DNA from: Candidatus Aenigmarchaeota archaeon LH_S6
GTDB taxonomy: Archaea; Aenigmatarchaeota; Aenigmatarchaeia; QMZS01
DNA length: 64,000 bases
NCBI GenBank assembly: GCA_023659935.1
Contig: JAGXOK010000001.1
Span: forward strand, 9,569 to 73,568
Direction: 5' to 3'
Of the stretch, positions 5,928 to 48,725 are shown one piece after another (position 1 is the stretch's first letter; each line of letters opens with the position of its first letter). Below the pieces are notes generated by a model. That model searched no databases and was not told the DNA's origin. It worked only from the letters and a program-made list of their open reading frames with translations. The position numbers were made by a program, and so were the translations under genes.

Positions 5928-6647
5928 ATGGGAATTGCAACTAAATTAAAAGAATATGTTGAGGATGGTGAAGTCTTAACCTATGAAATTATTAAAGATT
6001 TCAATCTCACCTCTGAAACCTCCCTGAAAGTTATTCTTTCAAATATGATTAAAATGAAAATCATTTTATCTCCTAAAAAAGGAGTTTATGTGTCTAAAAA
6101 TTTTAATCCTTTTAAAATTGCCCCCATCTTAGAGCCAGGATATATTACATTAACCACAGCATTTTATCATTACAATTTCATCTCCGAATATCCTTTCAAT
6201 ATATATGTTGGGGCTAAAAAATGGGCGGAGTATAGTTTGGGCAATTATAAATTTATTTATTTCCCCACCACAAATTTCAAATTTATTGACTTGGAAAGTA
6301 AAATTGCATTACCGGAAAAAGCTATATATGATTCTTTAAAATATTATAAAATTGTCCCTTTCAAGAAAACATTAGAAGCAATCCATCATGCAAGAAAGGT
6401 AAATTGGGATAATTTCTTGGCACTACTTTCTGAAGAAAAATCTTCTTTTTTACAAAGAACAGGTTATTTATTTTCAATTCTACCAAAAAAAAATAAAAAG
6501 ATTAAAGAAGTAATAATTTTCTGCAAACAAAACATGAATAAAGAATCTAAAATTTATCTTTTTGGAAGAAGTAAAGGAACTTTTATAGAAGAATGGAATA
6601 TTATAGATAATATTAGGGAAGAGGAATTATTATCATGGTGGAAATAG
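5928..6647 (+). CDS. AbiEi-like antitoxin / transcriptional regulator (type IV TA)
   Basis: Same size class as AbiEi and has a KGVY motif. It overlaps the downstream AbiEii-like gene by 13 nt. Confidence 0.4.
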   Translation: MGIATKLKEYVEDGEVLTYEIIKDFNLTSETSLKVILSNMIKMKIILSPKKGVYVSKNFNPFKIAPILEPGYITLTTAFYHYNFISEYPFNIYVGAKKWAEYSLGNYKFIYFPTTNFKFIDLESKIALPEKAIYDSLKYYKIVPFKKTLEAIHHARKVNWDNFLALLSEEKSSFLQRTGYLFSILPKKNKKIKEVIIFCKQNMNKESKIYLFGRSKGTFIEEWNIIDNIREEELLSWWK

Positions 6648-7318
6648 TTTTTAATAAAGAAGAAATAAAAAAATATTCAGCAGAGGCTGGTTTAGGATTC
6701 AATTTTATAGTAAAGGAAGCTTTTTTATTTTCAATCCTGGATGTTTTGAGAGATTATGATATTGTGTTGAAAGGAGGCACCGCAATAAACAAAATATTCC
6801 TTAAAGATAAACAAAGATTTTCAGAGGATTTGGATTTTGATACGAATTTAGGTCTAAAAGAAATAACGCAGATATTGCAAAAAGAAAAATTGAAAATAAA
6901 GAAGAGATATTATACAAAACATGCTCATGGTTTTGAAATTGCTTACACCTATGAAAACATAAAAGATGTTATTAGACTGGATTTTTCAATGCCAATAAAA
7001 GGTAATTGTTCTATTTCTACTTTAAAATCTGAGTTTTTACCTTTATCTATAAGATTTAGAGCTTATACTTTGAAGGAACTAATAAAACAGAAAGAAACAA
7101 CTTTCTTAAATAGAAAGGAGTGGAAAGATTTATATGATCTCTTCTGGATTTCAAAATTTTACCCAGACCAATTTAAAATTTCGGACAAAAAAAAATTTAT
7201 AGAAATTTTAAGTAAAATCAAAGTTCCAAAAATTGCAAATGCCTATATACCATTAAAAAATAGAATTGAGGGGAGGATTATAATTGAAGAATTTTTAAAG
7301 ACACTAACCAAAAAATAA
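6635..7318 (+). CDS. AbiEii-family nucleotidyltransferase toxin (DUF1814)
   Basis: Motif LKGGTAINK...RFSEDLDFD is the GGT plus RxSxDxD signature of AbiEii NTases. Confidence 0.6.
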   Translation: MVEIVFNKEEIKKYSAEAGLGFNFIVKEAFLFSILDVLRDYDIVLKGGTAINKIFLKDKQRFSEDLDFDTNLGLKEITQILQKEKLKIKKRYYTKHAHGFEIAYTYENIKDVIRLDFSMPIKGNCSISTLKSEFLPLSIRFRAYTLKELIKQKETTFLNRKEWKDLYDLFWISKFYPDQFKISDKKKFIEILSKIKVPKIANAYIPLKNRIEGRIIIEEFLKTLTKK

Positions 7319-13349: not shown

Positions 13350-14543
13350 TTACTCTAATTTCTTTTTTAGATAAATTCTCTCAATTCTTTCCATTTTTTT
13401 GAATTTATCCAGTTTTTTAATTACTTCTTGGGGCAATGTTTCAAAAACTCTTGACAATTTAAAAGTATCTAATCTAGATAATTCGTTCCACAGGTTATTT
13501 TCTCTTATTATTTTTTCAACTTGTTCTCTTTTTTCATCATTCTTCCTAGGAAAAGTTGCAACATCTTTCACCCAGATTCTTGAGATACAACCAGAGCCAT
13601 TAACAGAAGTCACTCCTTCTCTTTTACTATATTTTATAAGAGCCTCTTTTACCTGCTCAATTTCAGAATCAATTTTATTAAGAAATCTTTCCCTCTCATT
13701 TTTAAGTTTTACATATTTATTCACCAAATTCACTCCTGGTTCCCCAAGGAATTTGTTTGATTCAAGAGATTCTGTTTTTACCAAGTGTTTCTGTTCTGGG
13801 CATATATCCCTAAACTCGCACCAGTTGCAAAGATTTGAAACTTTTTGCTTAAATTCTTTTTCTTTTTCTATTCTTTTTATTAATTCTATTGTGTCTGATT
13901 TTAATTTTTCAAGTTCTCTCTCTGTTTTTTCTATAGTAACCTCCTTGTCTGCGGACAGAAAATGCCAAACTAATTTTACTCTTTTTGCATCCTGATAATT
14001 TTTAAGAACTGCAATTGCATAAAGAGCAAGCTGCCTGTCCCTATGCAAATATTCTTCTCGAGGAAGTTCAAAACTTGTTTTGTAATCATGAATTTCATAT
14101 TCTCCTTTTCCTGTTGACATAAGTCTGTCAATGAATCCCTGTAATTTGTATTTTCCTTCCAGGTCAAGGGAAATAATTACTTTTTTCTCAAGACCTATTA
14201 TTTTCCCTTTATCAAATGGATAATATCTATTATAATAATCCTTAAGATATTGCTCGCCCATTTTCTTGAAGTTCTCCTTGGTATATTCTTTTTTTACAAT
14301 CAGGATTGAATCATTCCAGTTTTTATTCCACAACCTGTTGTAAAATTGTAGTATTTCTTTAAGAGAATTTTCTTTCTTAAATTTAATATCTTTGTACACT
14401 TTTTTAAGAGTCATATGAACCATATTTCCCATAAATGCCTCCACACCCTGCTGAATCTTTGGCTCTAATCTATCTATATATTTGAATTTAAATTTCAGTG
14501 GACACTGCTCAAAACAGGAGAGCCTTGAATGTGAATAAATCAT
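13350..14543 (-). CDS. PD-(D/E)XK nuclease, Cas4/AddB-like with Fe-S cysteine cluster and K/E-rich C-terminal extension
   Basis: N-terminal YSHSRLSCFEQCPLKFKFKYI. The pattern D...EIHDYKTS. QLALYAI (the QxxxY motif). C-terminal CNWCEFRDICP. Confidence 0.6.
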   Translation of the reverse strand: MIYSHSRLSCFEQCPLKFKFKYIDRLEPKIQQGVEAFMGNMVHMTLKKVYKDIKFKKENSLKEILQFYNRLWNKNWNDSILIVKKEYTKENFKKMGEQYLKDYYNRYYPFDKGKIIGLEKKVIISLDLEGKYKLQGFIDRLMSTGKGEYEIHDYKTSFELPREEYLHRDRQLALYAIAVLKNYQDAKRVKLVWHFLSADKEVTIEKTERELEKLKSDTIELIKRIEKEKEFKQKVSNLCNWCEFRDICPEQKHLVKTESLESNKFLGEPGVNLVNKYVKLKNERERFLNKIDSEIEQVKEALIKYSKREGVTSVNGSGCISRIWVKDVATFPRKNDEKREQVEKIIRENNLWNELSRLDTFKLSRVFETLPQEVIKKLDKFKKMERIERIYLKKKLE

Positions 14544-14622
14544 AATTAATACTAAAAATTTCTATTGGAGAATGAAGTGTAATTGATAATACCCTTATTT
14601 TTAAAGGTTGACAAAAGTTGAA

Positions 14623-15210
14623 CTATTTTAGAAATTTATCTTTAAATTTTGATATATTGAATTTTAATTTTCGATAAAAAAACAAAAATTCCTGGGTTTC
14701 CTTTTTTATGTAATCAAGAATTTTTTTGTATTCTCTATCCTTATACCATGCAGGAATTATTGCTCCTGAATGTTCCTTTCCTGTAAATTTATCCAGGCTA
14801 CAACCTTTAAAATTAAAACCATTCATTGCCAGACATATTGGTTTGAGATCAATTACAGGCAAATTATGATAAATAAACCAATTATTATAATTAATTCCAT
14901 AGATTTCTGCCCTATGCTTGAATATACCCAAATCAAAACAAACATTAAAACCAACAGGAATAAATTTCCATTTGTTTTCTGGGCATAGAATTTTTGAGAA
15001 TTTTTCTATAATCTCTTTTTCAGAGGACTCCCATTCCTTTAAGATTTTTAAATCTCCGACAGGCCCTCCATACTTGCCGATTTCCTGGTATTGAATTGTT
15101 ATAATCTTACTTTTTTCTGGGTCAAATGGAACCCTCTCCTTCCTTCTTAATTTTTCCACAATTTCTGGATCAGTATATCCTATCTCTATATCAAGATAAT
15201 ATTCAGACAT
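14623..15210 (-). CDS. RNase H-like (DEDD-type, YprB/COG3359-like) exonuclease
   Basis: YLDIEIGY (Exo I, DxE) and FNVCFDLGIF (Exo II). Overlaps the upstream paralog by 8 nt. Confidence 0.4.
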   Translation of the reverse strand: MSEYYLDIEIGYTDPEIVEKLRRKERVPFDPEKSKIITIQYQEIGKYGGPVGDLKILKEWESSEKEIIEKFSKILCPENKWKFIPVGFNVCFDLGIFKHRAEIYGINYNNWFIYHNLPVIDLKPICLAMNGFNFKGCSLDKFTGKEHSGAIIPAWYKDREYKKILDYIKKETQEFLFFYRKLKFNISKFKDKFLK

Positions 15211-15697
15211 ATTCTTTCAAGATAATTGAGTATAGTTTTTCAGAGGCCTGCAAATTTTTTATAACAGCTTCTTCCATTTTCTGATAGTCTTTATTTTTAT
15301 AAAAATCCAAAATTTTTTCTTCAGGAACAGCCATAATATTATACCTCTGACAATAATACTTAAAACTTTTTATTTCTTTTTTTAAAAAAATCAAAACTGC
15401 AAACAAATCCAAAATATTAGAACGGTTTAATTTTAGATAAAATTCATCAAATTTTTCCAGAGAAGAAAGTTTTAATAATAAAAGAGGAAAGTCAAATTTC
15501 AGTATATTATACCCAACAAATATTTTGTCATTTTCTTTTAAAAACCAGTCTCTAAAATTTTTAAGGAGATTTTCTTCACTACTAAATTTCCAACTCTTCC
15601 AGATTCTTATATTACTCAGGCCTCTCTTCTTGACCTGAATAGTTAATATTTTTGCGGAATAGGATATTCCCTCAGTTTGAATATTTAGAAAGAGCAT
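15203..15697 (-). CDS. RNase H-like exonuclease paralog with substituted catalytic residues (NxQ instead of DxE)
   Basis: LFLNIQTEG (Exo I degenerate) and YNILKFDFPLL (Exo II). Tandem with 14623-15210. Confidence 0.35.
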   Translation of the reverse strand: MLFLNIQTEGISYSAKILTIQVKKRGLSNIRIWKSWKFSSEENLLKNFRDWFLKENDKIFVGYNILKFDFPLLLLKLSSLEKFDEFYLKLNRSNILDLFAVLIFLKKEIKSFKYYCQRYNIMAVPEEKILDFYKNKDYQKMEEAVIKNLQASEKLYSIILKEYV

Positions 15698-16800: not shown

Positions 16801-19533
16801 ATGGTAAACAAACTATATGTATTTTTAGGTCTGGTAGTTTTAGTCTTTGGATTATCTTTAGCAGTTGCCCAGGAAAATATTGGTGAAGAGAGTAATATTA
16901 TACCAAATGCTACATCTAGAGAGGGCCTCCCTAGTGAAGAAGGTAATGTTACTTTGGAGGGAGCGGCATTTCCAGTTCCCCATTCTCTTAAGGACGATAT
17001 CTCCCAATATAGACGAAGCATGCCTGAGCTTCCTGTTAATGCGTTTCTTTTGGTTGCGAAAGATAATCTTTCCTTGGTCTTCACTCATGAAAAAGTGAGT
17101 AAAGGTCTTGCCACTGTTGAGGGTAAAAAACTTTCTTACAATCTACCCTGGAAAAATACTGAATTGTCAGTGATAAAAGCAGATACTGTATCGGTTAGAA
17201 AAGAGGGCGATCCAGCTACAATCAATGATATACTGTCAAACCCAGATGCATATAGGCTGGAACTTGTTAAACTAGACACCACACTAAGACAAGTCTCCAC
17301 CCTTTATGACCCTGATGATGGTTCTGGGATTGAATTTCCCATAACAACTGGCGTAGTCGTTAACTCCCCACGGAATCCTGTAGATTTCGTTGATGATATG
17401 TCCAGAAAGGTTAGAGAATTTCATGATAATCCTTCCAGAAGTGTTGCTGACAGGCTTCTTGGAGATACTCCAAGGCAACATCTATATACTTTTAATTTCC
17501 AGGAAGATTTCTGGATTGATTCTAAAGCAGAGGTCAATGGTATAGTCTTATATCCCCAAGGTACAGTTGTTGATTTGATCGAGAACCTAGAGACAAGCGA
17601 ACTCGAACTCGTTCATACAGATAAAAATGTACTGCTTTACGTTGTAAAAACTGATATGAAGGCTACACATGTTACGTCTGTAAATGAGATAACCACTCAT
17701 TCAAAGAAATACATGGGAAAAGTTGTCAAATTTACCGCCTTTGGTAAAGGTGGAACCACCAGCATCCAAGAGATGATCAAGAAATCTGGGAAATATCCTC
17801 CAGTAGATGTTCTTCTACATGGAGTTGTTGCATGGAACAGTATTAGTGTACCACCAGAGAGAAATGATATCATTTTAACTACTGGTGCCTCATCTCATCA
17901 CCAGGACAGGGTCTTTGCGCCTGTTGAGGGTAAATTTAACTACATTGGAAAAATCGTTTCGTCCAAGCAGGTCAACGAATCATTGCCAGAAGGATTAGCT
18001 CTAATTACTTATGCTAGGAATAAAACAGGTGAATTGGATTATGAAAAGTTACCAGAGTCCGCTAAAGAGATGATCAAAAGGGAGTACTCCAACCTAAATG
18101 CATCTCTAGGGGGTGCTGCTCCAATCGAAATATCTACCCCTAAAGAGACGGCTCCAACCCCCACTGCAACACCTACTGCAACTCCGACACCTACACTACA
18201 ATCTCATTATCCAGGGAAATGTACTCAATTAGAAGACTTGATAGAAAAGAAAAAACATTATGAACGTTTATATAACTTATCTGAGGAAGAACTTGAGGAG
18301 AAGGGATATAGTAAAGGAAGAGAAGGTATTAAAAAAGTACTGGAAAAACTTGAAGAAAGAATTAGAAATATTAAACCAGAGTGTGAAAATTATACAAATT
18401 ATACAGCTTATACAAATAGATGTGCTGAATTAGAAGACTTGATAGTAAAGAAAAAACATTATAAACATTTATATAGCTTATCTGAGGAAGAACTTAAAAA
18501 GACGGGATATCCTCAAGGAAGAGAAGAGGTTAAAAAAATACTAGAAAAACTTGAAGAAAGAATTAGAGAATGTGAAGAAGTTAGATCTCGGGTAATTCAG
18601 GGAAACATATCTAGAATTAATGGTACGCCAAAGTATACAAATAGATGTACTCAATTAAAAGACTTGATAGTAAAGAAAAAACATTATAAACATTTATATA
18701 ACTTATCAGATAGAGAACTTAAGAAGAGAGGAGATAAAGGAAGAGAAGAGGTTAAAGAAATACTAGAAAAACTTGAAGAAAGAATTAGAGAATGTGAAGA
18801 AATTACAGCCAGATCTGGTGGTAGAAAAGGTCAAGGTGTTAATGTTTCTCAAGAGAGATACCCTGTAGTAAAACCTAGTAATGTAAGTATAACAAAACCT
18901 ATAGTAGCAGAATCCGGAAGGGAGATAACAGATTATTACACATCTAAAATCACCACCATAATGAAAAAAGAAACAAATGTAGAACAACAGGTAAAAGAAC
19001 TAAAAGAATTGAGAAATGAAGTTGATAAATTAATAGAAGAATTGATAAAAAGTAAAGATGAAATAAATACTGAAGAAGTGGATGAGTTGGTTTCAAAAGT
19101 AAAAATAAAACCCGGTAAAATAAAAGCTGATAATGCTATTGTAAATTCTACTAATAAAACAATAATAACAAAAGTCAATAAAAAGAATCTAACAATAAAA
19201 CCAACAAAATTGCATGTTACTATCCAAGAGGGAAAATATGAAATAAAAGCTCCTGAAATAAAGGTACAAAACAAGACATTAGTAGTTGGAAACTCTACTG
19301 TTAAACTTACAGCAAGTGATATTGTAGAAAAAACCAAGGTTGAGCCAAAAGATATTGAACTGAAAGAGGAAAATGCAAAAGCAGTCTATAAGATTAAAGC
19401 AGATGAAAACAGAAAATTGTTTGGATTTATTCCAGTAAAAGTTGAGAAAGATATGACTGTAGATGCTGGGGATAGAGAAGTAAAAGTTCTTAAAGAAAAG
19501 AGGCCTTGGTGGAGTTTTTTAACATCCAAATAG
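16801..19533 (+). CDS. secreted 910-aa protein with PT-rich linker, three tandem ~70-aa Cys-containing repeats and K-rich C-terminal region
   Basis: Signal peptide. PTPTATPTATPTPT linker. Three repeats beginning C(T/A)(Q/E)L(E/K)DLI(E/V)KKKHY at about nt 18221, 18421 and 18643. Coiled-coil and Lys-rich tail. Confidence 0.5.
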   Translation: MVNKLYVFLGLVVLVFGLSLAVAQENIGEESNIIPNATSREGLPSEEGNVTLEGAAFPVPHSLKDDISQYRRSMPELPVNAFLLVAKDNLSLVFTHEKVSKGLATVEGKKLSYNLPWKNTELSVIKADTVSVRKEGDPATINDILSNPDAYRLELVKLDTTLRQVSTLYDPDDGSGIEFPITTGVVVNSPRNPVDFVDDMSRKVREFHDNPSRSVADRLLGDTPRQHLYTFNFQEDFWIDSKAEVNGIVLYPQGTVVDLIENLETSELELVHTDKNVLLYVVKTDMKATHVTSVNEITTHSKKYMGKVVKFTAFGKGGTTSIQEMIKKSGKYPPVDVLLHGVVAWNSISVPPERNDIILTTGASSHHQDRVFAPVEGKFNYIGKIVSSKQVNESLPEGLALITYARNKTGELDYEKLPESAKEMIKREYSNLNASLGGAAPIEISTPKETAPTPTATPTATPTPTLQSHYPGKCTQLEDLIEKKKHYERLYNLSEEELEEKGYSKGREGIKKVLEKLEERIRNIKPECENYTNYTAYTNRCAELEDLIVKKKHYKHLYSLSEEELKKTGYPQGREEVKKILEKLEERIRECEEVRSRVIQGNISRINGTPKYTNRCTQLKDLIVKKKHYKHLYNLSDRELKKRGDKGREEVKEILEKLEERIRECEEITARSGGRKGQGVNVSQERYPVVKPSNVSITKPIVAESGREITDYYTSKITTIMKKETNVEQQVKELKELRNEVDKLIEELIKSKDEINTEEVDELVSKVKIKPGKIKADNAIVNSTNKTIITKVNKKNLTIKPTKLHVTIQEGKYEIKAPEIKVQNKTLVVGNSTVKLTASDIVEKTKVEPKDIELKEENAKAVYKIKADENRKLFGFIPVKVEKDMTVDAGDREVKVLKEKRPWWSFLTSK

Positions 19534-23539: not shown

Positions 23540-23828
23540 GTTTCAATCCTTATTTCATTCGTTTTCTTTGAAAACGATGCACCGTTTTTCTTTGAAAAAC
23601 GAGTGTCTTGGACCTATCTCTAAAACGCAACCCTTTTCAAGGTAATTGTTGAAAAAGGTCTGCACCCTAAAAACTAAAATAACAGAATTATCACCCTGTT
23701 TTGGCTTGAGCCTTTTTAATTTATAATACCCATAAAAGGCTCATTTAATCCTTATTTCATTCGTTTTCTTCGAAAACGATGCACCGTTTTTCTTTGAAAA
23801 ACGAGTGTCATGGACCTATTTCTAAAAC
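23540..23828 (-). CRISPR. satellite repeat-X-repeat unit: two 85-87-nt expanded CRISPR repeats (each with a 52-nt twin-palindrome insertion) flanking a 117-nt X element
   Basis: 23540-23626 and 23744-23828 are the normal 37-nt repeat, with cattcgttttctttgaaaacgatgcaccgtttttctttgaaaaacgagtgtc inserted between cttattt and ctggacc. 23627-23743 is 95 percent identical to 25894-26009. Confidence 0.55.
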
Positions 23829-24948: not shown

Positions 24949-25145
24949 TTTTTACGCGAGCCCATAGCTGCAGAGTATGTTGCTGGATATTTAAAATTAA
25001 AAGGATTATCTGTTGATGTAATACAGCATACAACAGAAGATGATAATGTTATATTGAATTTAATTAGGAAAGAAAAACTAAAAATACTGGGCATATCTAT
25101 TCATAGTACCCATATTTTTCCTTCAGCTGTATCTCCAGGTTGGTA
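24949..25145 (+). pseudogene. N-terminal fragment of a B12-binding-domain/radical-SAM-type gene, frameshifted and truncated
   Basis: Frame B reads EPIAAEYVAGYLKLKGLSVDVIQHTTEDDNVILNLIRKEKLKILGISIHSTHIFPSAV, which looks like a B12-binding N-terminal domain. The ATG (MVDVLIFTRAH) is in another frame. The gene ends at the CRISPR trailer. Confidence 0.35.
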
Positions 25146-25265
25146 AGGTACACTAACTTCAAATAAATTATGTAATCCCAGAAATAAAAGAGAAATTGTA
25201 ACTAAAATAACAAATCCTAAAATTACCTTATTCTCTACAATAAATTTTCTCAATTCCATAATTCA

Positions 25266-26117
25266 GTATTTTAATCCTTATTTTACTGGATCTATTTCTA
25301 AAACTGCCATATCTCCTACTACATCATCAGAACTCTCCGTTGCGTTTCAATCCTTATTTTCATGGACCTATCTCTAAAACAGAAAATTTAGAAAATCTGG
25401 CTGAAGAGTATGGTATGTTTCAATCCTTATTTTCATGGACCTATCTCTAAAACTTTCTTTTAGGTCTATGTTTCCCCCCATTCCAGCATGTTTCAATCCT
25501 TATTTTACTGGACCTATCTCTAAAACATTAGATACAAGGGAGAGAAAGCTTGAAGAATCTAAAGTTTCAATCCTTATTTTACTGGACCTATCTCTAAAAC
25601 AGGAATGCGCTCCAGAATCTATCATTACTTTTCCTTGTTTCAATCCTTATTTTACTGGACCTATTTCTAAAACACAAAGGACTTAGAGGGAACATAAAAT
25701 ACAAAACCCTGTTTCAATCCTTATTTTCGTGGATCTATTTCTAAAACTAACTCTGGAGGACGGGTTCAACGCAACTTCTGATGGTTTCAATCCTTATTTT
25801 ACTGGATCTATCTCTAAAACGAGACAGGGAAAAACCAACAACCAACACCATATCACGTTTCAATCCTTATTTTACTGGATCTATCTCTAAAACGCAACCC
25901 TTTTCAAGGTAATTGTTGAAAAAGGTCTGCACCTCAAAAACTAAAATAACAGAGTTATCACCCTGTTTTGGCTTTAGCCTTTTTAATTTACAATACCCAT
26001 AAAAGGCTCATTCAATCCTTATTTTACTGGACCTATCTCTAAAACTGTATTTTCAAGAAGGAAAAACCTTATCTCTTCTCGTTTCAATCCTTATTTTACT
26101 GGACCTATCTCTAAAAC
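25266..26117 (-). CRISPR. CRISPR array of 11 repeats; 37-nt repeat GTTTCAATCCTTATTTTACTGGACCTATCTCTAAAAC on the + strand; 35-39-nt spacers
   Basis: Repeats at 25266 (degenerate), 25344, 25417, 25490, 25564, 25637, 25711, 25784, 25857, 26010 (5'-truncated) and 26081. The reverse complement starts GTTTTAGAG and ends ATTGAAAC (a typical 8-nt 5' handle), so it is probably transcribed from the minus strand. That places the leader at 26118-26677 beside cas6 and makes the degenerate 25266 repeat the terminal one. Confidence 0.85.
25894..26009. repeat. 116-nt X element inside the CRISPR array between repeats 9 and 10 (second copy at 23627-23743)
   Basis: Too long to be a spacer. It holds two hairpins (ccttttcaa..ttgaaaagg and agccttttta..taaaaggct). 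The adjacent repeat is 5'-truncated. Confidence 0.7.
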
Positions 26118-26550
26118 AGCACCGAAATCCTTTGATTTTGGCTGTTCTTGGCGATTTTAATTCACCAATTTCGTCATATATATTATTTATCATTTTCTTT
26201 ATAAAGGAGTGCTATTGTACACATATTCGCCTGTAACAACAATCAACACACCTCATATTATAACTTGTTTTTTTTTAGGATAGAAACCCTTTTGGATTAT
26301 ATTTAGGATTTCATTTATCATCCCGATTGCCCCAATCATAAATTATAATCACTTATTTTTATAACTTCTCTAAAATCTCAAGTAATTCCTTATCTTCTTT
26401 CATCATTTTTTCTATCTGTTTATCTGCAATTTCCTTGGAAACTTTTAGTTCTTTTATACCTTTATCTGTTAATACATGTCTTATATAATACTTCCCTTCA
26501 ACTTTTTTCAATTCTCTCATAAATATAATTTGTAAGTTTATTTAAATCAA

Positions 26551-26664
26551 TTTGGGTGTTGGCCTTTTGATAGATTTAACCAATAAAGGCTGACTCTTTT
26601 TTTATTGACCAATTTTGTAGTTTGGGTGTTGGCCTTTTGATAGATTTAACCAATAAAGGCTGAC
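26551..26664. repeat. tandem duplicated 44-bp hairpin unit (period 70 bp) in the CRISPR leader / cas6 3' region, carrying a TTAACCAA loop motif
   Basis: TTTGGGTGTTGGCCTTTTGATAGATTTAACCAATAAAGGCTGAC occurs at 26551-26594 and 26621-26664. Confidence 0.8.
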
Positions 26665-26677
26665 AAGGGTTGCATAT

Positions 26678-27328
26678 TTAAACTGATTTAACTGTTCCAA
26701 AACCCTGTGAAACTCCTTTACCCAATCCAATAAATTCAGGTAATTTAAAATTGATTTTAAAATCACCAGTAAAACCAATCATAGGTACTTCTTTATATAC
26801 AACCGAGACAGGTTTAACTTTTGTCTTGACTTTTAATTCAGACAAAACAACATATTCAAATGCTTTTGCAACAGAAAGAATATTTCCAATCAGGACCTTG
26901 TGCAATAGCAATGTCTGTTCTTTTTTATTTAAACTATTATACTCTTTATAATTCTTCTCATTCAAAGCTATCCATGGTATGACAAACCTATATTTTCTCT
27001 CTTTTTCACTAAAACAAAAGTTCTGATATTTTTCTATTGTCTTTTTTTCTACAATTTTGTAACTGCTTGTTCCCAATTTAAGGTTGTCAAACTCATTCGA
27101 AATATTTTTTAAAGCAGTTGCACCCTCATTAATACCTAAAATAACTGGAGTGCCTTCTATTACTTTGTATTGTACTAGTGGATAAGTATATAGATAATTT
27201 TTCTCCAGATGATGATGTAAGATTGGTTCATCTCTAAATTTATTCCCAACAAAACCGCGGAGAAATGTTCCGGATTCTTTAACAGGTTTATTTGTTTTCA
27301 GAATTAAAGTATAAATTAAAAGTTCCAT
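26678..27328 (-). CDS. cas6: CRISPR-associated endoribonuclease Cas6
   Basis: Adjacent to the array on the inferred leader side. C-terminal glycine-rich loop GLGKGVSQGFGTV. RRM-like size of 216 aa. Confidence 0.65.
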   Translation of the reverse strand: MELLIYTLILKTNKPVKESGTFLRGFVGNKFRDEPILHHHLEKNYLYTYPLVQYKVIEGTPVILGINEGATALKNISNEFDNLKLGTSSYKIVEKKTIEKYQNFCFSEKERKYRFVIPWIALNEKNYKEYNSLNKKEQTLLLHKVLIGNILSVAKAFEYVVLSELKVKTKVKPVSVVYKEVPMIGFTGDFKINFKLPEFIGLGKGVSQGFGTVKSV

Positions 27329-27348: not shown

Positions 27349-27738
27349 TTACCTTTTACTCCTCTGCTTGTGTCTTCTTGGACCTTTCTTGCTTCTGCTT
27401 GGTTTGTGGGGTTCTGTTCTCCTGACATCTGGAACCAGTAGATTTCTGTCATAACCTATAAATTTCTTTTTTAGTTCTTTTCCTTTAAGAGAAGCTAAAC
27501 CAATTGCTATTGCTTGTCCAACTGCTTCTGCCTGCCCTATAATCCCTCCTCCTTTCACGTTAGCCTTTATTGTGAAGTTTTCATCTTCTGCAATTAATAG
27601 GGGTTCAAGAATTTTTAATTGGATAACTTTTGGAAAATTTTCAATATCTTTATGATTAATTATTATTTTTTTATCTCCTTTTTCTAGCCTTACTCTAGCA
27701 ACCGCCCTCTTCCTCTTTCCAGTAAATAGTTTACTCAT
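27349..27738 (-). CDS. rps9: ribosomal protein uS9
   Basis: GGGIIGQAEAVGQAIAIGL... and the C-terminal PHKPSRSKKGPRRHKQRSKR. Confidence 0.8.
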   Translation of the reverse strand: MSKLFTGKRKRAVARVRLEKGDKKIIINHKDIENFPKVIQLKILEPLLIAEDENFTIKANVKGGGIIGQAEAVGQAIAIGLASLKGKELKKKFIGYDRNLLVPDVRRTEPHKPSRSKKGPRRHKQRSKR

Positions 27739-28150
27739 TATCTTTATTCCCCAAAAATTTACTTAATTCACTAACAAAAATAGACCACCTTTTTACTTTA
27801 TCAACTTGTTTGCCAATTTTCTTGAATTCAGAATTTTTATATTTATCAGGTACTCCAACAAAAACTTTTATCCTTTTAAAGGTTTTTTTTCCCTCTTTTG
27901 TTTTATAAGGGAGCATCCCTCTGATTGCTCTCATGACAATCTGGTCAGGTTTTGATGGAAAAAAAGGCCCATGCTGGGGATTTCCTCTCCTTCTTCTCTC
28001 TAAATATTTTTTAAATATGTCCTCTTTTTTACCAGAAATTACAGCCTGCTCAGAATTTATAATTATAATCTCTTCTTCCCTCTTTGCTTTTTTTGCAACT
28101 TCTGTTGCTAGCCTTCCAAGAATACAGTTTTTGGCATTTATAACTTCCAT
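27731..28150 (-). CDS. rpl13: ribosomal protein uL13
   Basis: ILGRLATEVAKKA...IRGMLPYKTKEGK...IKVFVG. Overlaps rps9 by 8 nt. Confidence 0.8.
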   Translation of the reverse strand: MEVINAKNCILGRLATEVAKKAKREEEIIIINSEQAVISGKKEDIFKKYLERRRRGNPQHGPFFPSKPDQIVMRAIRGMLPYKTKEGKKTFKRIKVFVGVPDKYKNSEFKKIGKQVDKVKRWSIFVSELSKFLGNKDNE

Positions 28151-37188: not shown

Positions 37189-37600
37189 AATATGTTATGA
37201 AGAAAGGTTTAACAATGGGTGTACTATTTTGGGTACTTATATTTTTTATAGTACTTATTGTTTTTGTCTCTCTTGCCCTGTGGAGTAAAGGTTTTGGTTT
37301 AAATATTTTAAGTGCTTTATTAGGCTCAGTACCTTAGTATGGGGAATATAGGTTTGATAATATTATATGTTGTTTTGGGTTTAGTGTTTATTCTCCTTGT
37401 ATTTTCTGTTGGTTCAGCCCTCTCTTTAATATGAAAAGAGTTTTTTTTTGCTTGAGCCTTTTTAGTAAACTTAACCAACAAAAGGCTTATATGAAAGGAA
37501 TAACTATCGATATGATTGCGAGTATTATAATTTTATTTATGGTTTTTATAATCCTTACTGTAATTTTTATAGCAATGGGTAATGCAATACCATCCCCAAC

Positions 37601-39343
37601 ATGAGAGGAGTTGTGATTACTAAGATACAGGGAGTTATTTTCGTATTAATTTTTTTAGTGGTTATATTTTTAATTATTACCTATCTTTTCTCAGGACAAG
37701 AAAAAGAAGGCTTTATGAATTTACCAAGAGGAGTCGGGATTTCTTTGGAATCAGCAGATACAAAGATTTTTGTTTTACCTCCAGTTGTCTGGTTTGGAAA
37801 AACTCTTGGTTTGAATGTAAATTCTGTAAATTTTGATGAGGTGTTTGATGAGGATAATAGTAAATCAACAGATTTTATTTTCCCTACCAATAATGTTTAT
37901 ATAAAAAAGCCTACAACTGGAGGGGCCTTGACAGCTTTGGAATTAATATTTTTTTCTAACCCGACTGTTATAGTATTATCTGATGTGTTAGGCTTTTCAG
38001 GAAATATAGATTTTAAATTCAAAACCACTAAACCAATTTCTCCTGTAATTGCATTTTATCCTTTAGTTACTGATAATTTTGATTCTCTAGTTTCTAATGC
38101 ACCCGCAAAATCTGATTCAATAAATGGACAAGATATCTACTATCTAAATTCTAAAAAACCCTTCGGCTCTGTAAATTTTACTTTAACAATTGATCCAAAA
38201 GAACTTTACAAACATTATAGCCTAAAAAATGAAAAATTTGATAAAGCCAAAGCAGATGAAAATATAAAATTATCTGTTAGTTATTTTACTGATAAGAGCT
38301 CAGAAAAATATTATAATTCCAAAACAGTTGAACTTGGGATAGGTAAAACAAAACTAGGGAATTTGGATGGAAAGGATTATGAAATTACATTAACAAGTTG
38401 CTGTGATCCTCCTGAATTAAAAGTTGAATATGGTGGGGGAACAGAAACAGGAATCCTTATTAAAAATGAAATCGTAACAATAGCTGGATTAGATATCTAT
38501 ACAAAAAAAGCGGAACATAGGGATACAGAAGTTCAAGTAGGTGCAGCAAGAACTATAAAGGATTTAATAGATAGTGGAGAGTGTAAAGAAGATTCTGATA
38601 AATATAATTGCTCTTTTAGTTTTAATACTAGTGAGAAATGTTGTCCAGATTATGTATATATAAAACCAATTTTCAGAGTAAACTTAAGTAAAGGAAAGTT
38701 ACAGAGGTGGAAAGAAGAGGAAATAGATCCAATATATTTCCAGATTGTTTATTACTTAGATGTCCTTGAAGATAAAGATTTTATTTTTGAGAATTTTAAA
38801 GATATTCAAAATTTATATAAGGAAGAAGATGAAGATAAAGTAAGTCCTGTTAAAGATATTTTAATTTATCCTTGTAGGGCAATAGCAAGATTAGATAAAG
38901 GTCAAATTTCCCTATTACCGTCAAGAGTTAAAAGTTTTGATAAAAAAATAATTGACTGGAGTGAATGTGAGTCTGCAACCAGTAATTTTATTCAACTAAA
39001 ATATAAGAATTTGTATCAGAACTCTACTTGGTTTTGTAAAAATTCTGGAGGAGATTACCTTCTTTACAATCCTTATGCTTTCTGCAGACTTAATGGAGAA
39101 GGGTTGCCAGAAATCCCAACTCCTACATATTTACAGGGAATAATTCCAAGCGGGAATCTTTCTGTTAAATGGGGACCTTGGATAATACCAGATGTAACTT
39201 ATAAGGAATATCATGAAGCTGCTTTAATCTGGGCCTTTCATATGATTGATACTGTCACAGAGACTTTAAAAAATGGCGGTAATATAAACTTCCCAGAGGA
39301 TGATACTATTGGTATAATAAATGTTACCTATAATTTTAATTAA
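37601..39343 (+). CDS. secreted/membrane-anchored Cys-containing hypothetical protein
   Basis: N-terminal TM helix. No recognisable domain. Confidence 0.4.
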   Translation: MRGVVITKIQGVIFVLIFLVVIFLIITYLFSGQEKEGFMNLPRGVGISLESADTKIFVLPPVVWFGKTLGLNVNSVNFDEVFDEDNSKSTDFIFPTNNVYIKKPTTGGALTALELIFFSNPTVIVLSDVLGFSGNIDFKFKTTKPISPVIAFYPLVTDNFDSLVSNAPAKSDSINGQDIYYLNSKKPFGSVNFTLTIDPKELYKHYSLKNEKFDKAKADENIKLSVSYFTDKSSEKYYNSKTVELGIGKTKLGNLDGKDYEITLTSCCDPPELKVEYGGGTETGILIKNEIVTIAGLDIYTKKAEHRDTEVQVGAARTIKDLIDSGECKEDSDKYNCSFSFNTSEKCCPDYVYIKPIFRVNLSKGKLQRWKEEEIDPIYFQIVYYLDVLEDKDFIFENFKDIQNLYKEEDEDKVSPVKDILIYPCRAIARLDKGQISLLPSRVKSFDKKIIDWSECESATSNFIQLKYKNLYQNSTWFCKNSGGDYLLYNPYAFCRLNGEGLPEIPTPTYLQGIIPSGNLSVKWGPWIIPDVTYKEYHEAALIWAFHMIDTVTETLKNGGNINFPEDDTIGIINVTYNFN

Positions 39344-39523: not shown

Positions 39524-41344
39524 TTATTTCTCTGAAGAGTTCCATTCCTCAATATCCTTCCAGGGCTCTCTGCTCACCTTAAAGTTCTCTCCACTGAGAA
39601 CCTGCCTATAATTTCTCCAGAGGAATCTTTCATCCAGATAGACCACCACAGCCTTGTCCTTTTCTGACCTTATTGCTCTTCCACTTGCCTGGATTGCTTT
39701 TTGTACTGCTGGATAGATATATCCATATTCCATTCCTTTTCCATAATTTTTGTTATAACAATCTATCCTACTTTTTGTTTCTAAATCTGGCATGGCAAGG
39801 GCAACTCCTGCAATTATTATACACTTGAGAGAATTATTTGGAAAATCAATTCCTTGGTCAAATGAGCCAGATTGTACCCCTAATAATAATCCTTTTTCAG
39901 AACCTATAAATTGTTTGAGTAAATTGGTTTTCCGCTCTTTTGTTAGTTCTTGTACTTCCTTAAAAATGTTTAACCTACTATCTAAAAAATTACTCACTTG
40001 ATTCAGAAAATAATAGGATGGAAAGAAAATTGCTGTGTTTCCATTAACAGCATTGAATATTCTGCTTATGATGTCCGCATAATTCTTGTATTGTGCTTCT
40101 CCTCTCCTTGAAAACTTTGTTGTTGCAATTGGCGCAACCAGATTTAGCCTGTTTTCTTTTGGGAAAATTGATTTAAAGGAAATTGTCTCATAATTTTTAA
40201 CTCCTAACAGATTAGCATACATTTCCAAGGGTTGCAGGGTTGCTGACATTAAAATTGTTGAATAACTATTATTAATTATATCTGAAGTTATTGCTGCTGG
40301 CAGTAAAGCATTTAACTTTAATTCAATCTGCTTCCCATATTTTGTATCTTTTTTTCTTATTATTCTTGTAAAGTTCTCATCGCTGTTTATCCAGTTTTCA
40401 ATAAATTTTGATAAACCTGAGCAGTAACTTTTCTCCTTTCCCTCTCCCCTAACCAAATCTGAAACTTCCTGTAATTCATCCAAAAATTCAGGGCTAAGAG
40501 AATTCAGAATTGATACTATCTCTTCCTTACTGACATAAGCTTCATTATTATGCTCTAATCTATCCTTTGCAAGTTCCTCTATTCTAATCCTAAGATTATC
40601 AATATCTTGACTAACATCCCTCTGCATTCCGCTGGCCTCCTTAATAGCAGTGTTTAAAACAAAAGTTGTCAGTTTTGAGGAAATCAAATCTGTTGCCCTG
40701 CCTGGAAGCTGGTGTGCCTCATCAACAATAACTATGGAGTCTTCAAGGTTTTTATTTATTTTTGCAAGGAAAGTTCCTGAAACAAAAGGATTAAAAAGAT
40801 GAAAATAATCCGCAACAACTACAACACTTCTCTTTGCAGACTGGCAAACAATTTCATAGGGACAAAAATCCTTGCATTTCTTCTTTAGTTCTTCTGAATT
40901 TAGAATTTCCTTAGAGACCTCATTAATTTTGGTTTTTGCTTCTTCTGTGAGTTCTCCTTTTTTGAAAACTTTATTATAAAATTCACATTTCTCTTCTTTT
41001 TTTAGATAATTGCAGAGTTCCTGAAAATCTGATGAACCCAAATCATCATAAAAATAATTACAAAACCACCTTTTTCCTATTATATTAACAGTTTTTATTT
41101 CTCCGATTTTCTTTAGAGTTTCAAGGGCAATCAGATGCTGGGAGTGTCTCGGCGTCAGAAAGAATACTGTTAATCCAAGTTCAGATGCTAACTTTACAGC
41201 TGGATAAAGAACTCCGGCAGTTTTTCCAATTCCAGATGGTGCGTGTATCAATAGATTTTTTCTATTTTTAATGCAATCTTCAACTCTCTGAACCAACTCA
41301 TCCTGATTTTCCCTTTTTTTCTGAAATGGAAATTTCAATGACAT
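39524..41344 (-). CDS. xpd: XPD/Rad3-family 5'-3' DNA helicase with Fe-S domain
   Basis: LIHAPSGIGKT. A four-Cys cluster (CNYF...C...C...C). VIVDEAHQLP. The C-terminal helicase motifs. Confidence 0.75.
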   Translation of the reverse strand: MSLKFPFQKKRENQDELVQRVEDCIKNRKNLLIHAPSGIGKTAGVLYPAVKLASELGLTVFFLTPRHSQHLIALETLKKIGEIKTVNIIGKRWFCNYFYDDLGSSDFQELCNYLKKEEKCEFYNKVFKKGELTEEAKTKINEVSKEILNSEELKKKCKDFCPYEIVCQSAKRSVVVVADYFHLFNPFVSGTFLAKINKNLEDSIVIVDEAHQLPGRATDLISSKLTTFVLNTAIKEASGMQRDVSQDIDNLRIRIEELAKDRLEHNNEAYVSKEEIVSILNSLSPEFLDELQEVSDLVRGEGKEKSYCSGLSKFIENWINSDENFTRIIRKKDTKYGKQIELKLNALLPAAITSDIINNSYSTILMSATLQPLEMYANLLGVKNYETISFKSIFPKENRLNLVAPIATTKFSRRGEAQYKNYADIISRIFNAVNGNTAIFFPSYYFLNQVSNFLDSRLNIFKEVQELTKERKTNLLKQFIGSEKGLLLGVQSGSFDQGIDFPNNSLKCIIIAGVALAMPDLETKSRIDCYNKNYGKGMEYGYIYPAVQKAIQASGRAIRSEKDKAVVVYLDERFLWRNYRQVLSGENFKVSREPWKDIEEWNSSEK

Positions 41345-42460: not shown

Positions 42461-42570
42461 TGTCAGCCTTTAGAAAAGGCCGACACTCCAAACAAGGAAA
42501 TTTTGTTTTTTTCTAGTTTATACTAAGTTATTAATTTAAAATTTCAAAAATAAAAAGAAGATTAAGGAGG

Positions 42571-46299: not shown

Positions 46300-46608
46300 T
46301 TATTTAATTTCTTTAAGTTTACCAAACATTTTCTTATAAACTTCAAATTTTTTTAAAGTTAGCAAATGTAATTCAAATTCGTAAGGTAATTTTAATTCTT
46401 TCCTTATTTCTGCGATTATTTCGGCTCTTCTCAAACCTTTTTCTGGAATAGAGGACGAGCAAATTAAAATATCTATATCACTGCAGGCACTGTACTTTTT
46501 TTTAATTACACTACCAAATCCATAGACATGAGTATCACCTAAAATTTTTGTACTTAGTTTTTTTATTTCTTTTGCATAAGTCTCCCAATTTTTGAAAACT
46601 TCATTCAT
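46300..46608 (-). CDS. minimal nucleotidyltransferase (MNT antitoxin-like)
   Basis: GFGSVIKKKYSACSDIDILI matches the GS..x..DxD motif. Confidence 0.6.
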   Translation of the reverse strand: MNEVFKNWETYAKEIKKLSTKILGDTHVYGFGSVIKKKYSACSDIDILICSSSIPEKGLRRAEIIAEIRKELKLPYEFELHLLTLKKFEVYKKMFGKLKEIK

Positions 46609-46979
46609 TCTACTAACCGTATAATTTTCTGAACTACTTCTACAAGTTTTTTTATCTCCGCTATTTCAAACTCTCTGGCAAAATACCTTGATGTTATATA
46701 TGCATCTTCTAATAATGCTAATCCTAAACTTTCATCCTCCAATAATTTTTTTGCTCTTTTATCCAATTCTGCTACCTGTGATAATAGAATCCTCAAAGAA
46801 TGTGTTTTTGGATAATATCCTTTTTTCTCTAACAAAAAAGATTTTAAAAAAAGTTGTGCCGCCTGCTCCAAATTAAAAGCTGCTAAATCAAAAATTTTTT
46901 TATTTGCTAAACTTTCAGCATTTTCAAAAAAATTTCTCGCCTTCTTTTTTAACAAGTTTGTTTCTTCTTTTGAACCCAT
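46605..46979 (-). CDS. HEPN-domain protein, partner of MNT (4-nt overlap)
   Basis: LEQAAQLFLKSFLL...KTHSL...YITSRYFAREF shows the HEPN helical pattern. Confidence 0.55.
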   Translation of the reverse strand: MGSKEETNLLKKKARNFFENAESLANKKIFDLAAFNLEQAAQLFLKSFLLEKKGYYPKTHSLRILLSQVAELDKRAKKLLEDESLGLALLEDAYITSRYFAREFEIAEIKKLVEVVQKIIRLVE

Positions 46980-48002: not shown

Positions 48003-48725
48003 TTAAACAAATCTTTTGTAACAACAATACCTTTTTTTTAACTTAAATTTATCACAGAACTTTAAAAGACTTCTCAAATCATTTTTAGTAATTTGCGACT
48101 TATACTTAACTTCTATTGGAATTAATTTATTTTGTTTCTTAAGGATTATATCTACTTCATCTTTTTGTTGGGTTCTCCAAAAGGAAATTTTTTCAAGATT
48201 ATTTACCATAAGGGACTCCACCAGATGTCCTGAAACTTCTGTGTTTATAACTTCAAAAGGATAATCCAACAAACCCAAAACAATAGAAGGATGAGCAATA
48301 AAGTGTTTCTTGTTTGCTCTCACCTGCTTGGCAACACTCGCAGTGAAATTGTAAACAATTCTTATCAAATATGATTTTTCTAATAAGTTAATATAAAAGG
48401 ATACAAGATTTCTGTTAATTTTTAAAATTCTTGAGATATTTATTATTTCAAATAATTGTGCATTACTATTTACCAAAATTCTAAATAATTCATAGATTAC
48501 TTTTTCGTTAGAATCTGTAATTCTTGCTATATCACTAATTGCTTTTTCAACCACAGATTCTTTTATATATTTATTGATAAATTCCTTATCTTTTATTTCA
48601 AGCAATTCTGGAAAACCTCCTTTTACCAAGTAATCCTCAAATAATTTCTTATACTTTTCTTTCTTTGTTATAAATTTTAATTCATATTCTCTAAATAAAT
48701 TTTTTGCAGATATATCCTCTTTCAA
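48003..48725 (-). pseudogene. 5'-truncated COG1373-type ATPase (AAA_14/DUF4143 family), C-terminal half only
   Basis: It starts inside the family at the conserved GGFPE motif. The Walker A N-terminal half is absent and only 92 bp separate it from gatC. Confidence 0.45.

What the first reader, a model, noticed from the sequence alone, without database searches (positions are those of the whole stretch)
25266..27328. CRISPR array with only Cas6 nearby, wedged between housekeeping genes; orientation inferred from the repeat
Eleven 37-nt repeats with 35-39-nt spacers. The repeat's reverse complement GTTTTAGAG...ATTGAAAC indicates minus-strand transcription. That puts the leader between the array and cas6, and the degenerate repeat at 25266 at the trailer end, which is internally consistent. 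No cas1, cas2 or effector genes occur within at least 25 kb on either side. A ribosomal-protein operon (rps9, rpl13) follows cas6, and a truncated rSAM gene fragment abuts the trailer. This suggests either a relocated, decaying array or trans-acting cas genes elsewhere.
Basis: partly seen in the sequence, partly recalled or inferred. Interest (0 to 1): 0.55.

Follow-up and report, generated by a model that had tools for sequence, protein, structure and literature searches.

The report
Decaying CRISPR locus: cas6 plus array
This is a real CRISPR array with its RNA-cutting cas6 gene in a tiny symbiotic-type archaeon (Aenigmarchaeota), and it is what remains after internal deletions removed the other immunity genes, an ordinary case of CRISPR loss that related strains document well.

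Summary
There are 11 copies of a 37-nt repeat at 25268-26117 and an intact Cas6b gene at 26678-27328 (minus strand). No other intact cas gene lies in the 64 kb.

The arrangement is neither relocated nor mysterious. Close relatives carry the same repeat and leader and the same rpl13-rps9-cas6 junction, and some still hold cas genes between cas6 and the array. Strain LH_S4 has cas6-cas1-fic-53aa-cas8b... on one contig and cas2-cas4-leader-19 repeats on another. A more distant relative (RS_11_5) has a full type I-D operon in that position.

The window keeps the scars of deletion. It has a fic 3' remnant. It also has a cas8b(5 codons)::cas4(last ~40 codons, frameshifted) fusion joined at a GGCAAT microhomology. 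Other sister strains show further decay: a cas6 frameshift, or an array reduced to one repeat.

The leader and the Cas6b catalytic residues (H38/H40) are intact, so crRNA may still be made. Spacer uptake is gone. Interference would need an effector encoded elsewhere, which I could not check.

The 115-nt "spacer" is a conserved trailer-like element, not a spacer. It has a second copy at 23627-23741, flanked by two interrupted repeats.

Verdict: a new member of a known kind, of low to moderate interest.

The parts
27731..28150 (-). rpl13 (ribosomal protein L13), first gene of the co-oriented run rpl13-rps9-cas6
   Evidence: Pfam Ribosomal_L13 2.8e-17. The same junction is found in sister strains L008, L010 and L016.
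27349..27738 (-). rps9 (ribosomal protein S9). Its stop codon lies 20 nt upstream of the cas6 ATG.
   Evidence: Pfam Ribosomal_S9 1.6e-29; sequence.
26678..27328 (-). cas6b, intact at 216 aa: the crRNA-processing endoribonuclease
   Evidence: Pfam Cas6b_N/Cas6b_C. PADLOC Cas6 1.2e-74. PDB 4z7k Cas6b 1.5e-41 with H38, H40, Y47 and Y49 aligned and conserved (their roles from PMC3479195). It is 99.5% identical to Cas6 of LH_S4, which still has cas1 and cas8b next to it.
26551..26664 (-). Two perfect 44-nt copies (26551-26594 and 26621-26664) of a hairpin element. They sit where sister strain L008 has cas1 plus most of fic (deletion 1, about 1.3 kb).
   Evidence: Fold -9.1 kcal/mol, z -2.4. Members of the same hairpin family lie after other genes in the window.
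26501..26563 (-). 3' remnant of a fic/doc-family gene (last 21 codons)
   Evidence: tblastn with L008 Fic, aa 105-125, 81% identity. Pfam family of the intact gene.
26359..26520 (-). 53-aa ORF of unknown function. It is conserved in all LH strains and follows fic inside the cas locus.
   Evidence: No Pfam or PADLOC hit.
26218..26345 (-). Deletion-2 scar. The first 5 codons of a cas8b gene are fused at a GGCAAT microhomology to the last ~40 codons of cas4. The remnant is frameshifted (A9 run against A7).
   Evidence: Alignment A3. tblastn with Cas4 aa 158-194, 75-95% identity. L008's 59-aa ORF matches the Cas8b N-terminus. The CxxCx5C Cas4 motif is seen in the L003 remnant.
26118..26217 (-). 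Leader, with the TATA-like TTTATAAA at 26198-26205, 88 nt upstream of the first repeat
   Evidence: Nearly identical to the leaders of the cas-linked arrays in LH_S4 (L005), LH_S7 (L004) and RS_11_5 (L012). Promoter function is inferred, not tested.
26009..26117 (-). Array part 1: repeat 11, a 35-nt spacer, and repeat 10. Repeat 10 is the terminal variant ending ...GGATTGAATG.
   Evidence: The same terminal variant ends the arrays in L005, L004 and L010.
25894..26008 (-). 115-nt T element, not a spacer. It begins with the genome-wide GCCTTT..AAAGGC hairpin and contains U-runs. It is conserved after the terminal repeat in sister strains.
   Evidence: Fold -34.3 kcal/mol, z -3.5. Its similarity to the leader is not significant (38 of 1000 shuffles).
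25268..25893 (-). Array part 2: repeats 9 to 1 with eight unique spacers of 36-39 nt. The last repeat has 4 mismatches.
   Evidence: The array as a whole has 7 repeat variants in 11 copies.
24964..25147 (+). Fragment of a B12-binding (radical-SAM-type) gene, overlapped by a 52-aa minus-strand ORF (25101-25259)
   Evidence: Pfam B12-binding 2.8e-05, 24.4 bits, below the cut-off of 32.1.
23540..23828 (-). Second repeat-T-repeat module. Repeat A is at 23742-23828, the T copy at 23627-23741, and repeat B at 23540-23626. Both repeats are interrupted after nt 18 by the same 53-nt double hairpin.
   Evidence: Insert fold -17.1 kcal/mol, z -4.4.

Best explanation
The feature is the hollowed-out remnant of a class 1, type I CRISPR-Cas locus in an Aenigmarchaeota (DPANN) archaeon. 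In this lineage the locus has the order cas6-cas1-(fic-53aa)-[effector cassette]-cas2-cas4-leader-array and sits directly downstream of rpl13-rps9. The effector cassette was type I-B-like in the closest strains.

In the window's strain, two internal deletions removed everything between cas6 and the leader.
- Deletion 1 (about 1.3 kb) took cas1 and most of fic.
- Deletion 2 (roughly 9-10 kb, by analogy with related loci) ran from codon 5 of cas8b to about codon 155 of cas4. It was joined at a 6-nt microhomology.

What is left: an intact cas6b, an intact leader, and a composite array of 2 repeats, a trailer-like element, then 9 repeats.

Inferred working state: the leader can still drive a pre-crRNA. 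Cas6b is probably read through from the ribosomal-protein operon and can still cut each repeat 8 nt from its 3' end, leaving the AUUGAAAC handle. No new spacers can be acquired. Without Cas8b/Cas7/Cas5/Cas3 in the genome, the crRNAs have no complex to load into. The locus is then a fossil on its way to loss, as sister strains show.

Shown: the anatomy, the homology, the deletion scars and the comparative series. Inferred: transcription, processing and lack of interference.

The confidence given (0.75) is for the whole statement. Origin by in-place deletion alone I put at about 0.9, and absence of any interference function at about 0.65.
For: - The array and Cas6b are real.
- The same repeat and leader lie next to full cas sets in relatives. 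RS_11_5 has cas6-cas1-...-cas3'-cas10d-csc2-csc1-...-cas2-cas4-leader-29 repeats. LH_S4 (Cas6 99.5% identical) has rps9-cas6-cas1-fic-53aa-cas8b... and cas2-cas4-leader-19 repeats.
- The window carries scars: a fic 3' remnant, a cas4 3' remnant and a cas8b::cas4 junction at GGCAAT.
- Closely related strains carry different deletion alleles. L008 keeps cas1 but has a single repeat. L010 has cas6 plus one repeat. L003 has a cas1::cas4 fusion. L004 has a frameshifted cas6.
- No other cas gene is in the 64 kb.
- The window's repeats are unusually heterogeneous: 7 variants in 11 copies, against 2 in 19 and 2 in 29 in cas-linked arrays.
- In Haloferax type I-B, Cas6 alone does not maintain crRNAs (PMC3945376, abstract seen).
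Against: - cas6 is intact, keeps H38/H40/Y47 and shows dN/dS of 0-0.23 among LH strains. The leader is also undamaged. Both are compatible with continued use by an effector encoded elsewhere.
- The window is part of a larger contig and genome that I could not retrieve, so absence of effectors is shown only for 64 kb.
- The low dN/dS may simply reflect the time before very recent deletions.
- The size of deletion 2 is estimated from related loci (L018, L012), not measured.
Confidence: 0.75

Rival explanations
1. The pair is a working satellite. cas6b and the array are kept because an effector complex encoded elsewhere in the same genome (type I-B, I-D or III) uses their crRNAs in trans. Only the local copies of the other cas genes were lost.
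For: cas6 is intact with its catalytic residues. dN/dS is low and the leader is intact. Distant arrays served in trans are common: 23% of arrays in bacterial genomes (PMC7145637). A related locus (L018) has a type III cas10 right after cas4. A type III-A system is reported in another Aenigmarchaeota MAG (PMC8407114).
Against: There is no effector in the 64 kb. Sister strains let cas6 frameshift and let arrays shrink to one repeat, which argues against selection on this module. No Cas7d closer than 75% to the RS_11_5 protein was found in the public collection, which includes the LH assemblies; the hits I traced came from unrelated samples. The adaptation genes are gone, so the array is frozen.
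Confidence: 0.2
2. Part of the anatomy is an assembly chimera of co-occurring strains. The two array parts, the duplicated T element and the tandem 44-nt hairpin could have been joined across repeats by the assembler.
For: Several strains 97-99% identical coexist in these samples. An independent assembly of the same sample breaks at 26635, inside the 44-nt duplication. The repeat variants in the window look like a mix of those seen in different strains.
Against: The repeat-T-repeat unit is seen in independent assemblies L010 and L011. The cas6, 53-aa ORF, cas4 remnant, leader and first repeats are colinear at 92% in L004. The deletion scars do not depend on the disputed joins.
Confidence: 0.1
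3. The array was relocated or brought in by a mobile element or virus, and is unrelated to the neighbouring cas6.
For: The region is flanked by repeated hairpin elements and by a duplicated 115-nt element.
Against: The leader and cas4 remnant are homologous to the cas-linked loci of relatives and lie in the same order and orientation. The repeat is absent from 2.9 million viral contigs. No integrase or transposase is nearby.
Confidence: 0.02

Closest known systems
Type I-B CRISPR-Cas with Cas6b (Methanococcus maripaludis, Clostridium thermocellum, Haloferax volcanii)
   Same: The Cas6b family matches (PDB 4z7k, E 1.5e-41) and both catalytic histidines are conserved. The repeat is 37 nt, essentially unstructured (MFE -2.8 kcal/mol, z -0.45) and ends in ATTGAAAC. 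The closest strain, LH_S4, has a cas8b-type gene in the locus.
   Different: There is no Cas8b, Cas7, Cas5, Cas3, Cas1, Cas2 or intact Cas4 here. The lineage's gene order is also atypical: cas6-cas1 at one end and cas2-cas4 at the other.
Type I-D locus of Candidatus Aenigmatarchaeota RS_11_5 (JAGLVB010000012.1)
   Same: Same repeat and homologous leader. Cas6 is 78% identical. The array lies downstream of cas4 in the same orientation.
   Different: That locus is complete (cas3', cas10d, csc2, csc1, cas1, cas2, cas4, 29 repeats) and sits in a different genomic neighbourhood.
Distant or orphan CRISPR arrays, which may be remnants or be served in trans (Bernheim et al. 2019, PMC7145637; Anabaena orphan arrays and Cas6, bioRxiv 10.1101/2020.04.14.041012)
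   Same: The array has no effector or adaptation genes within 20 kb. It is short and its repeats are drifting.
   Different: Here the processing enzyme is still adjacent, and the deletion junctions and intermediate alleles can be read directly.

Membership tests
CRISPR array | Near-identical direct repeats of 23-47 nt, regularly spaced by unique spacers of similar length | tested here: met
   11 repeats of 37 nt. Nine spacers are 35-39 nt and all unique. One 115-nt interval is not a spacer.
CRISPR array | Repeat matches a curated CRISPR repeat family | tested here: met
   Rfam RF01320 CRISPR-DR7. Three copies score 38-41 bits against a gathering score of 37, seven more score lower, and all are on the minus strand.
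CRISPR array | Leader with promoter at the end where new spacers are added | tested here: inconclusive
   The leader is homologous to those of cas-linked arrays and contains a conserved TTTATAAA. Promoter activity was not tested.
Cas6b endoribonuclease | Cas6b_N and Cas6b_C domains above the curated thresholds, in a full-length ORF | tested here: met
   100.4 and 133.5 bits against cut-offs of 25 and 39.4. The ORF is 216 aa, as in relatives.
Cas6b endoribonuclease | Catalytic histidine pair H38/H40 (M. maripaludis numbering) | tested here: met
   The alignment to 4z7k places the query's H38-H39-H40 opposite H38-N39-H40. Y47 and Y49 are also conserved. Roles are taken from PMC3479195.
Cas6b endoribonuclease | Cleaves the cognate repeat 8 nt from its 3' end | not testable with these tools
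   Needs an in vitro cleavage assay or small-RNA sequencing.
Complete type I-B (or I-D) CRISPR-Cas system | Effector genes present: cas8b/cas7/cas5/cas3, or cas10d/csc2/csc1/cas3' | tested here: not met
   None by Pfam or PADLOC in the 64 kb. tblastn with all I-B (L018) and I-D (L012) proteins finds only cas6 and a cas4 remnant. The PADLOC 'type IV DinG' hit at 39524-41344 is the housekeeping XPD helicase, shown by its HBB domain.
Complete type I-B (or I-D) CRISPR-Cas system | Adaptation genes cas1, cas2 and cas4 present | tested here: not met
   Only a frameshifted remnant of about 37 cas4 codons at 26218-26330.
Distant array served in trans | A compatible cas operon elsewhere in the same genome | not testable with these tools
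   The rest of the genome could not be fetched. The repeat scan of species-representative genomes found only other strains.

The most novel reading that the evidence does not exclude
The cas6-leader-array pair is not dead. It could be a retained crRNA-producing module used by an effector encoded elsewhere in the genome. Alternatively it could be an 'empty frame' that can be refilled by recombination with co-resident strains. That fits a lineage in which nearly identical frames carry either a type I-B or a type I-D effector cassette (L018 and L012 frames are 90-95% identical).
Probability: 0.15. Interest if true: 0.45.

Novelty: new member of a known kind. Interest (0 to 1): 0.28.

Why it matters
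By itself it matters little. Arrays without neighbouring cas genes are common: 35% of bacterial arrays, of which 12% are orphans (PMC7145637).

Its value is as a clean natural series. At least five deletion alleles of one CRISPR-Cas locus occur in strains that are 97-99% identical. They range from apparently complete (LH_S4) to a single repeat (L008, L010), and one junction is resolved to a 6-nt microhomology. That records how a small-genome DPANN archaeon sheds CRISPR immunity piece by piece.

It is also a warning for automated annotation. A solo cas6 plus array would be scored as a 'CRISPR-Cas locus', and the XPD helicase as 'type IV DinG'.

Tried and rejected
1. The 115-nt interval as a duplicated leader plus a degenerate repeat. 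Its similarity to the leader is weak (score 22; 38 of 1000 shuffles reach it) and no repeat-like segment was found. Rejected as unproven.
2. A tRNA-derived attachment site after the array in L004, suggested by a T-arm-like GGGTTCAAATCCCGG. ARAGORN finds no tRNA there.
3. The 606-aa PADLOC 'type IV DinG' hit (7e-108). It is archaeal XPD: DEAD_2, HBB and Helicase_C_2 domains.
4. Synteny of the NUDIX gene downstream of the array with the NUDIX gene after the RS_11_5 array. The proteins are only 24% identical, so not orthologous.
5. Spacer targets.
   - BLAST of the array against 50,697 phage records gave only chance hits (E >= 0.3).
   - Six spacers were scanned as 24-27-mers against viral contigs, with no hits.
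   - There is no self-match in the window and no spacer shared with L004, L005 or L012.
6. Walking beyond the window and finding the source contig. The exact-protein look-ups returned only short Logan contigs or nothing. The 93-kb NCBI contig that carries the identical Cas6 was not retrievable.
7. Looking for a type I-D effector in LH strains through Cas7d homologues. Nothing closer than 75% was found, and the two candidates I traced came from unrelated samples.
8. Using low dN/dS of cas6 as proof of present function. Rejected, because the deletions differ between near-identical strains and are probably younger than most of the divergence measured.
9. The repeat in JGI metagenome contigs and in viral contigs: no matches.
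Full report
**Observation.** The window holds 11 copies of a 37-nt repeat between 25268 and 26117.
- On the minus strand the repeat reads GTTTTAGAGATAGGTCCAGTAAAATAAGGATTGAAAC.
- Ten of the eleven copies match Rfam CRISPR-DR7, all on the minus strand, and three exceed the gathering score.
- The repeat RNA is essentially unstructured (MFE -2.8 kcal/mol, z -0.45).
- Nine intervals are unique 35-39-nt spacers. The tenth (25894-26008) is 115 nt.
- The ORF at 26678-27328(-) is an intact 216-aa Cas6b. It matches Pfam Cas6b_N and Cas6b_C, PADLOC Cas6 at 1e-74 and M. maripaludis Cas6b (4z7k) at 1.5e-41.
- The two catalytic histidines defined for that enzyme, H38 and H40, and also Y47, are conserved (PMC3479195).
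- rpl13 and rps9 lie on the same strand immediately upstream. Only 20 nt separate the rps9 stop from the cas6 start.

**Rest of the window.** The organism is an archaeon: it has PolD DP2, Cdc48, TFB, RtcB, RFC and XPD.
- I scanned the ORFs I judged to be genes, mostly of about 100 aa or more, with Pfam and the large ones also with PADLOC.
- No cas1, cas2, intact cas4 or effector gene is present.
- The strong PADLOC 'type IV DinG' hit at 39524-41344 is the housekeeping XPD helicase, shown by its HBB domain.
- tblastn of every Cas protein from two related complete loci against the window found only cas6 and a short cas4 remnant.

**Relatives.** A scan of species-representative genomes for the repeat found it only in Aenigmarchaeota (DPANN) MAGs. 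Exact-protein and homology look-ups then recovered a series of loci.
- **RS_11_5 (L012).** The locus reads cas6-cas1-[ATPase]-...-cas3'-cas10d-csc2-csc1-...-ATPase-cas2-cas4-leader-29 repeats. This is a type I-D system with the same repeat and a homologous leader. Its Cas6 is 78% identical to the window's.
- **LH_S4.** Its Cas6 is 99.5% identical to the window's.
  - Contig L016 has rpl13-rps9-cas6-cas1-fic-53aa, then the first 133 aa of a Cas8b-like protein, and the contig ends there. That fragment is 83% identical to the PADLOC-typed Cas8b of a JGI type I-B locus, L018.
  - A second contig, L005, has intact cas2 and cas4, the leader and 19 repeats.
  - In this lineage the cas genes therefore sit between cas6 and the array.

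**Deletion scars in the window.** The window carries two scars between cas6 and the leader.
- **Deletion 1.** Between the cas6 stop and the 53-aa ORF, L008 has cas1 and fic (1,311 nt). The window has 118 nt there, made of two perfect 44-nt hairpin copies, followed by the last 21 codons of fic.
- **Deletion 2.** After the 53-aa ORF, L008 begins a cas8b gene (MIEAIKEIG...). The window and L004 follow it for five codons and then switch, at a shared GGCAAT, into cas4 at about codon 155. They continue to the cas4 stop with a +2 frameshift in an A-run.
- By analogy with L018, the second deletion removed roughly 9-10 kb.
- The leader that follows is almost identical to that of LH_S4, including a TTTATAAA box 88 nt upstream of the first repeat.

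**Other alleles.**
- L003 fuses the cas1 N-terminus to the cas4 C-terminus.
- L008 keeps cas1 but has one repeat.
- L010 has cas6, the 53-aa ORF and one repeat.
- L004 (LH_S7) has the window's two deletions plus a 1-nt deletion near codon 10 of cas6. Its upstream genes are housekeeping.

The locus is therefore being lost by repeated, different deletions in strains that differ by about 3% in DNA.

**The 115-nt interval and the second site.**
- The interval (the T element) follows a terminal-variant repeat (...GGATTGAATG) in L004, L005 and L010 as well.
- It opens with a hairpin of a family (GCCTTT..AAAGGC) that recurs after other genes. Examples are 42466-42480 after TFB, 37456-37486, and the 44-nt copies after cas6.
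- It contains U-runs. It therefore looks like the end of the transcription unit rather than a spacer.
- In the window it is followed by nine more repeats.
- A second T copy lies at 23627-23741, between two repeats. Each of those repeats is split after nt 18 by the same 53-nt double hairpin.
- L010 can be derived from a window-like arrangement by recombination between the two T copies. I cannot establish the direction of that change.
- The window's 11 repeats comprise 7 sequence variants, against 2 in 19 (LH_S4) and 2 in 29 (RS_11_5). This fits drift or a recombinant origin.

**Function.**
- Shown: the anatomy and its history.
- Inferred: the leader can still drive transcription and Cas6b can still cut the repeats, but nothing can add spacers. 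Unless an effector is encoded elsewhere, nothing can use the crRNAs.
- In Haloferax type I-B, Cas6 is necessary but not sufficient for a stable crRNA population (PMC3945376).
- cas6 shows dN/dS of 0-0.23 among the LH strains. Because the deletion alleles differ between near-identical strains, this mostly reflects the time before the deletions. I do not count it as evidence of present function.
- I could not retrieve the rest of the genome, so use in trans remains open, at about 0.2.
- Spacers have no match in phage records, viral contigs, the window or related loci. No spacer is shared with the L004, L005 or L012 arrays.

**Comparison and verdict.**
- Arrays without neighbouring cas genes are common, and remnants of this kind are expected (PMC7145637).
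- This is a new member of a known kind: a decaying type I (I-B-like) locus reduced to cas6b plus array.
The 'decaying' reading is right, 'relocated' is wrong, and 'trans-acting' is untested.
- The most interesting by-product lies outside the finding. Two loci with 90-95% identical cas6, cas1, ATPase, cas2 and cas4 carry entirely different effector cassettes, type I-B in L018 and type I-D in L012.

Noticed in passing
L012 (JAGLVB010000012.1) versus L018 (JGI Ga0164318_10001872): Two loci share a 90-95% identical frame: Cas6 90%, Cas1 94%, the 441-aa ATPase 92.5%, Cas2 95% and Cas4 90%. Between cas1 and the ATPase they hold entirely different effector cassettes. L012 has type I-D (cas3'-cas10d-csc2-csc1). 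L018 has type I-B (cas8b+109aa-cas7-cas5-cas3), followed by a type III cas10. This is a recent effector-module swap in which the same Cas6, and presumably the same repeat, serve both (the L018 array was not seen).
   Followed up: partly
window 23540-23828 (-): Two CRISPR repeats are each interrupted after nt 18 by the same 53-nt double-hairpin insert (-17.1 kcal/mol, z -4.4). They flank a second copy of the 115-nt T element. The insert occurs nowhere else in the window or in the fetched loci.
   Followed up: partly
window 26562-26590, 26632-26660, 25977-26007, 23710-23740, 37456-37486, 42466-42480; L008 700-793: A family of GCCTTT...AAAGGC hairpins sits just after genes and just after the terminal CRISPR repeat. 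It looks like a terminator-like or REP-like element. The copy after cas6 is tandemly duplicated in the window and marks a deletion junction.
   Followed up: partly
L008 11646-12162; L016 9836-10352; window 26359-26563: A fic/doc-family gene (125 aa) and an overlapping conserved 53-aa ORF sit inside the cas locus between cas1 and cas8b in LH strains. They may be a toxin-antitoxin-like pair. The window keeps only the 53-aa ORF and 21 fic codons.
   Followed up: no
window 39524-41344 (-): The housekeeping XPD/Rad3 helicase (DEAD_2, HBB, Helicase_C_2) scores 6.8e-108 against the PADLOC 'type IV DinG' model. Next to an orphan array, this is a trap for automated defence annotation.
   Followed up: yes
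window 13350-15697 (-): A 397-aa PD-(D/E)XK nuclease (PDDEXK_1, DUF2800, and Cas4 family just above threshold) lies next to two short ORFs with PolB exonuclease-domain hits. This may be a relic of a virus or other element with a split or decayed PolB.
   Followed up: no
window 46300-46979 (-), 5928-7318 (+), 48003-48725 (-); L007 954-1211: Other defence-type or toxin-antitoxin genes are scattered in the window. They include a HEPN-nucleotidyltransferase pair, an AbiEii toxin with an upstream 239-aa ORF, and a ParE toxin just left of the window. There is also an N-terminally truncated AAA_14/DUF4143 ATPase, 41% identical to the ATPases embedded in the related cas loci.
   Followed up: no
L004 5785-6546 (LH_S7): This copy of the locus keeps only the last 36 nt of rps9 upstream of a frameshifted cas6 and is otherwise surrounded by different genes (LysRS and others). 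The remnant has therefore been moved or rearranged in that strain.
   Followed up: partly
window 16801-19533, 3963-5756, 37601-39343: Three large ORFs (910, 597 and 580 aa) have no Pfam or PADLOC match. In L010 the position syntenic with the 910-aa ORF holds a cohesin-domain protein, so they are probably variable surface proteins.
   Followed up: no
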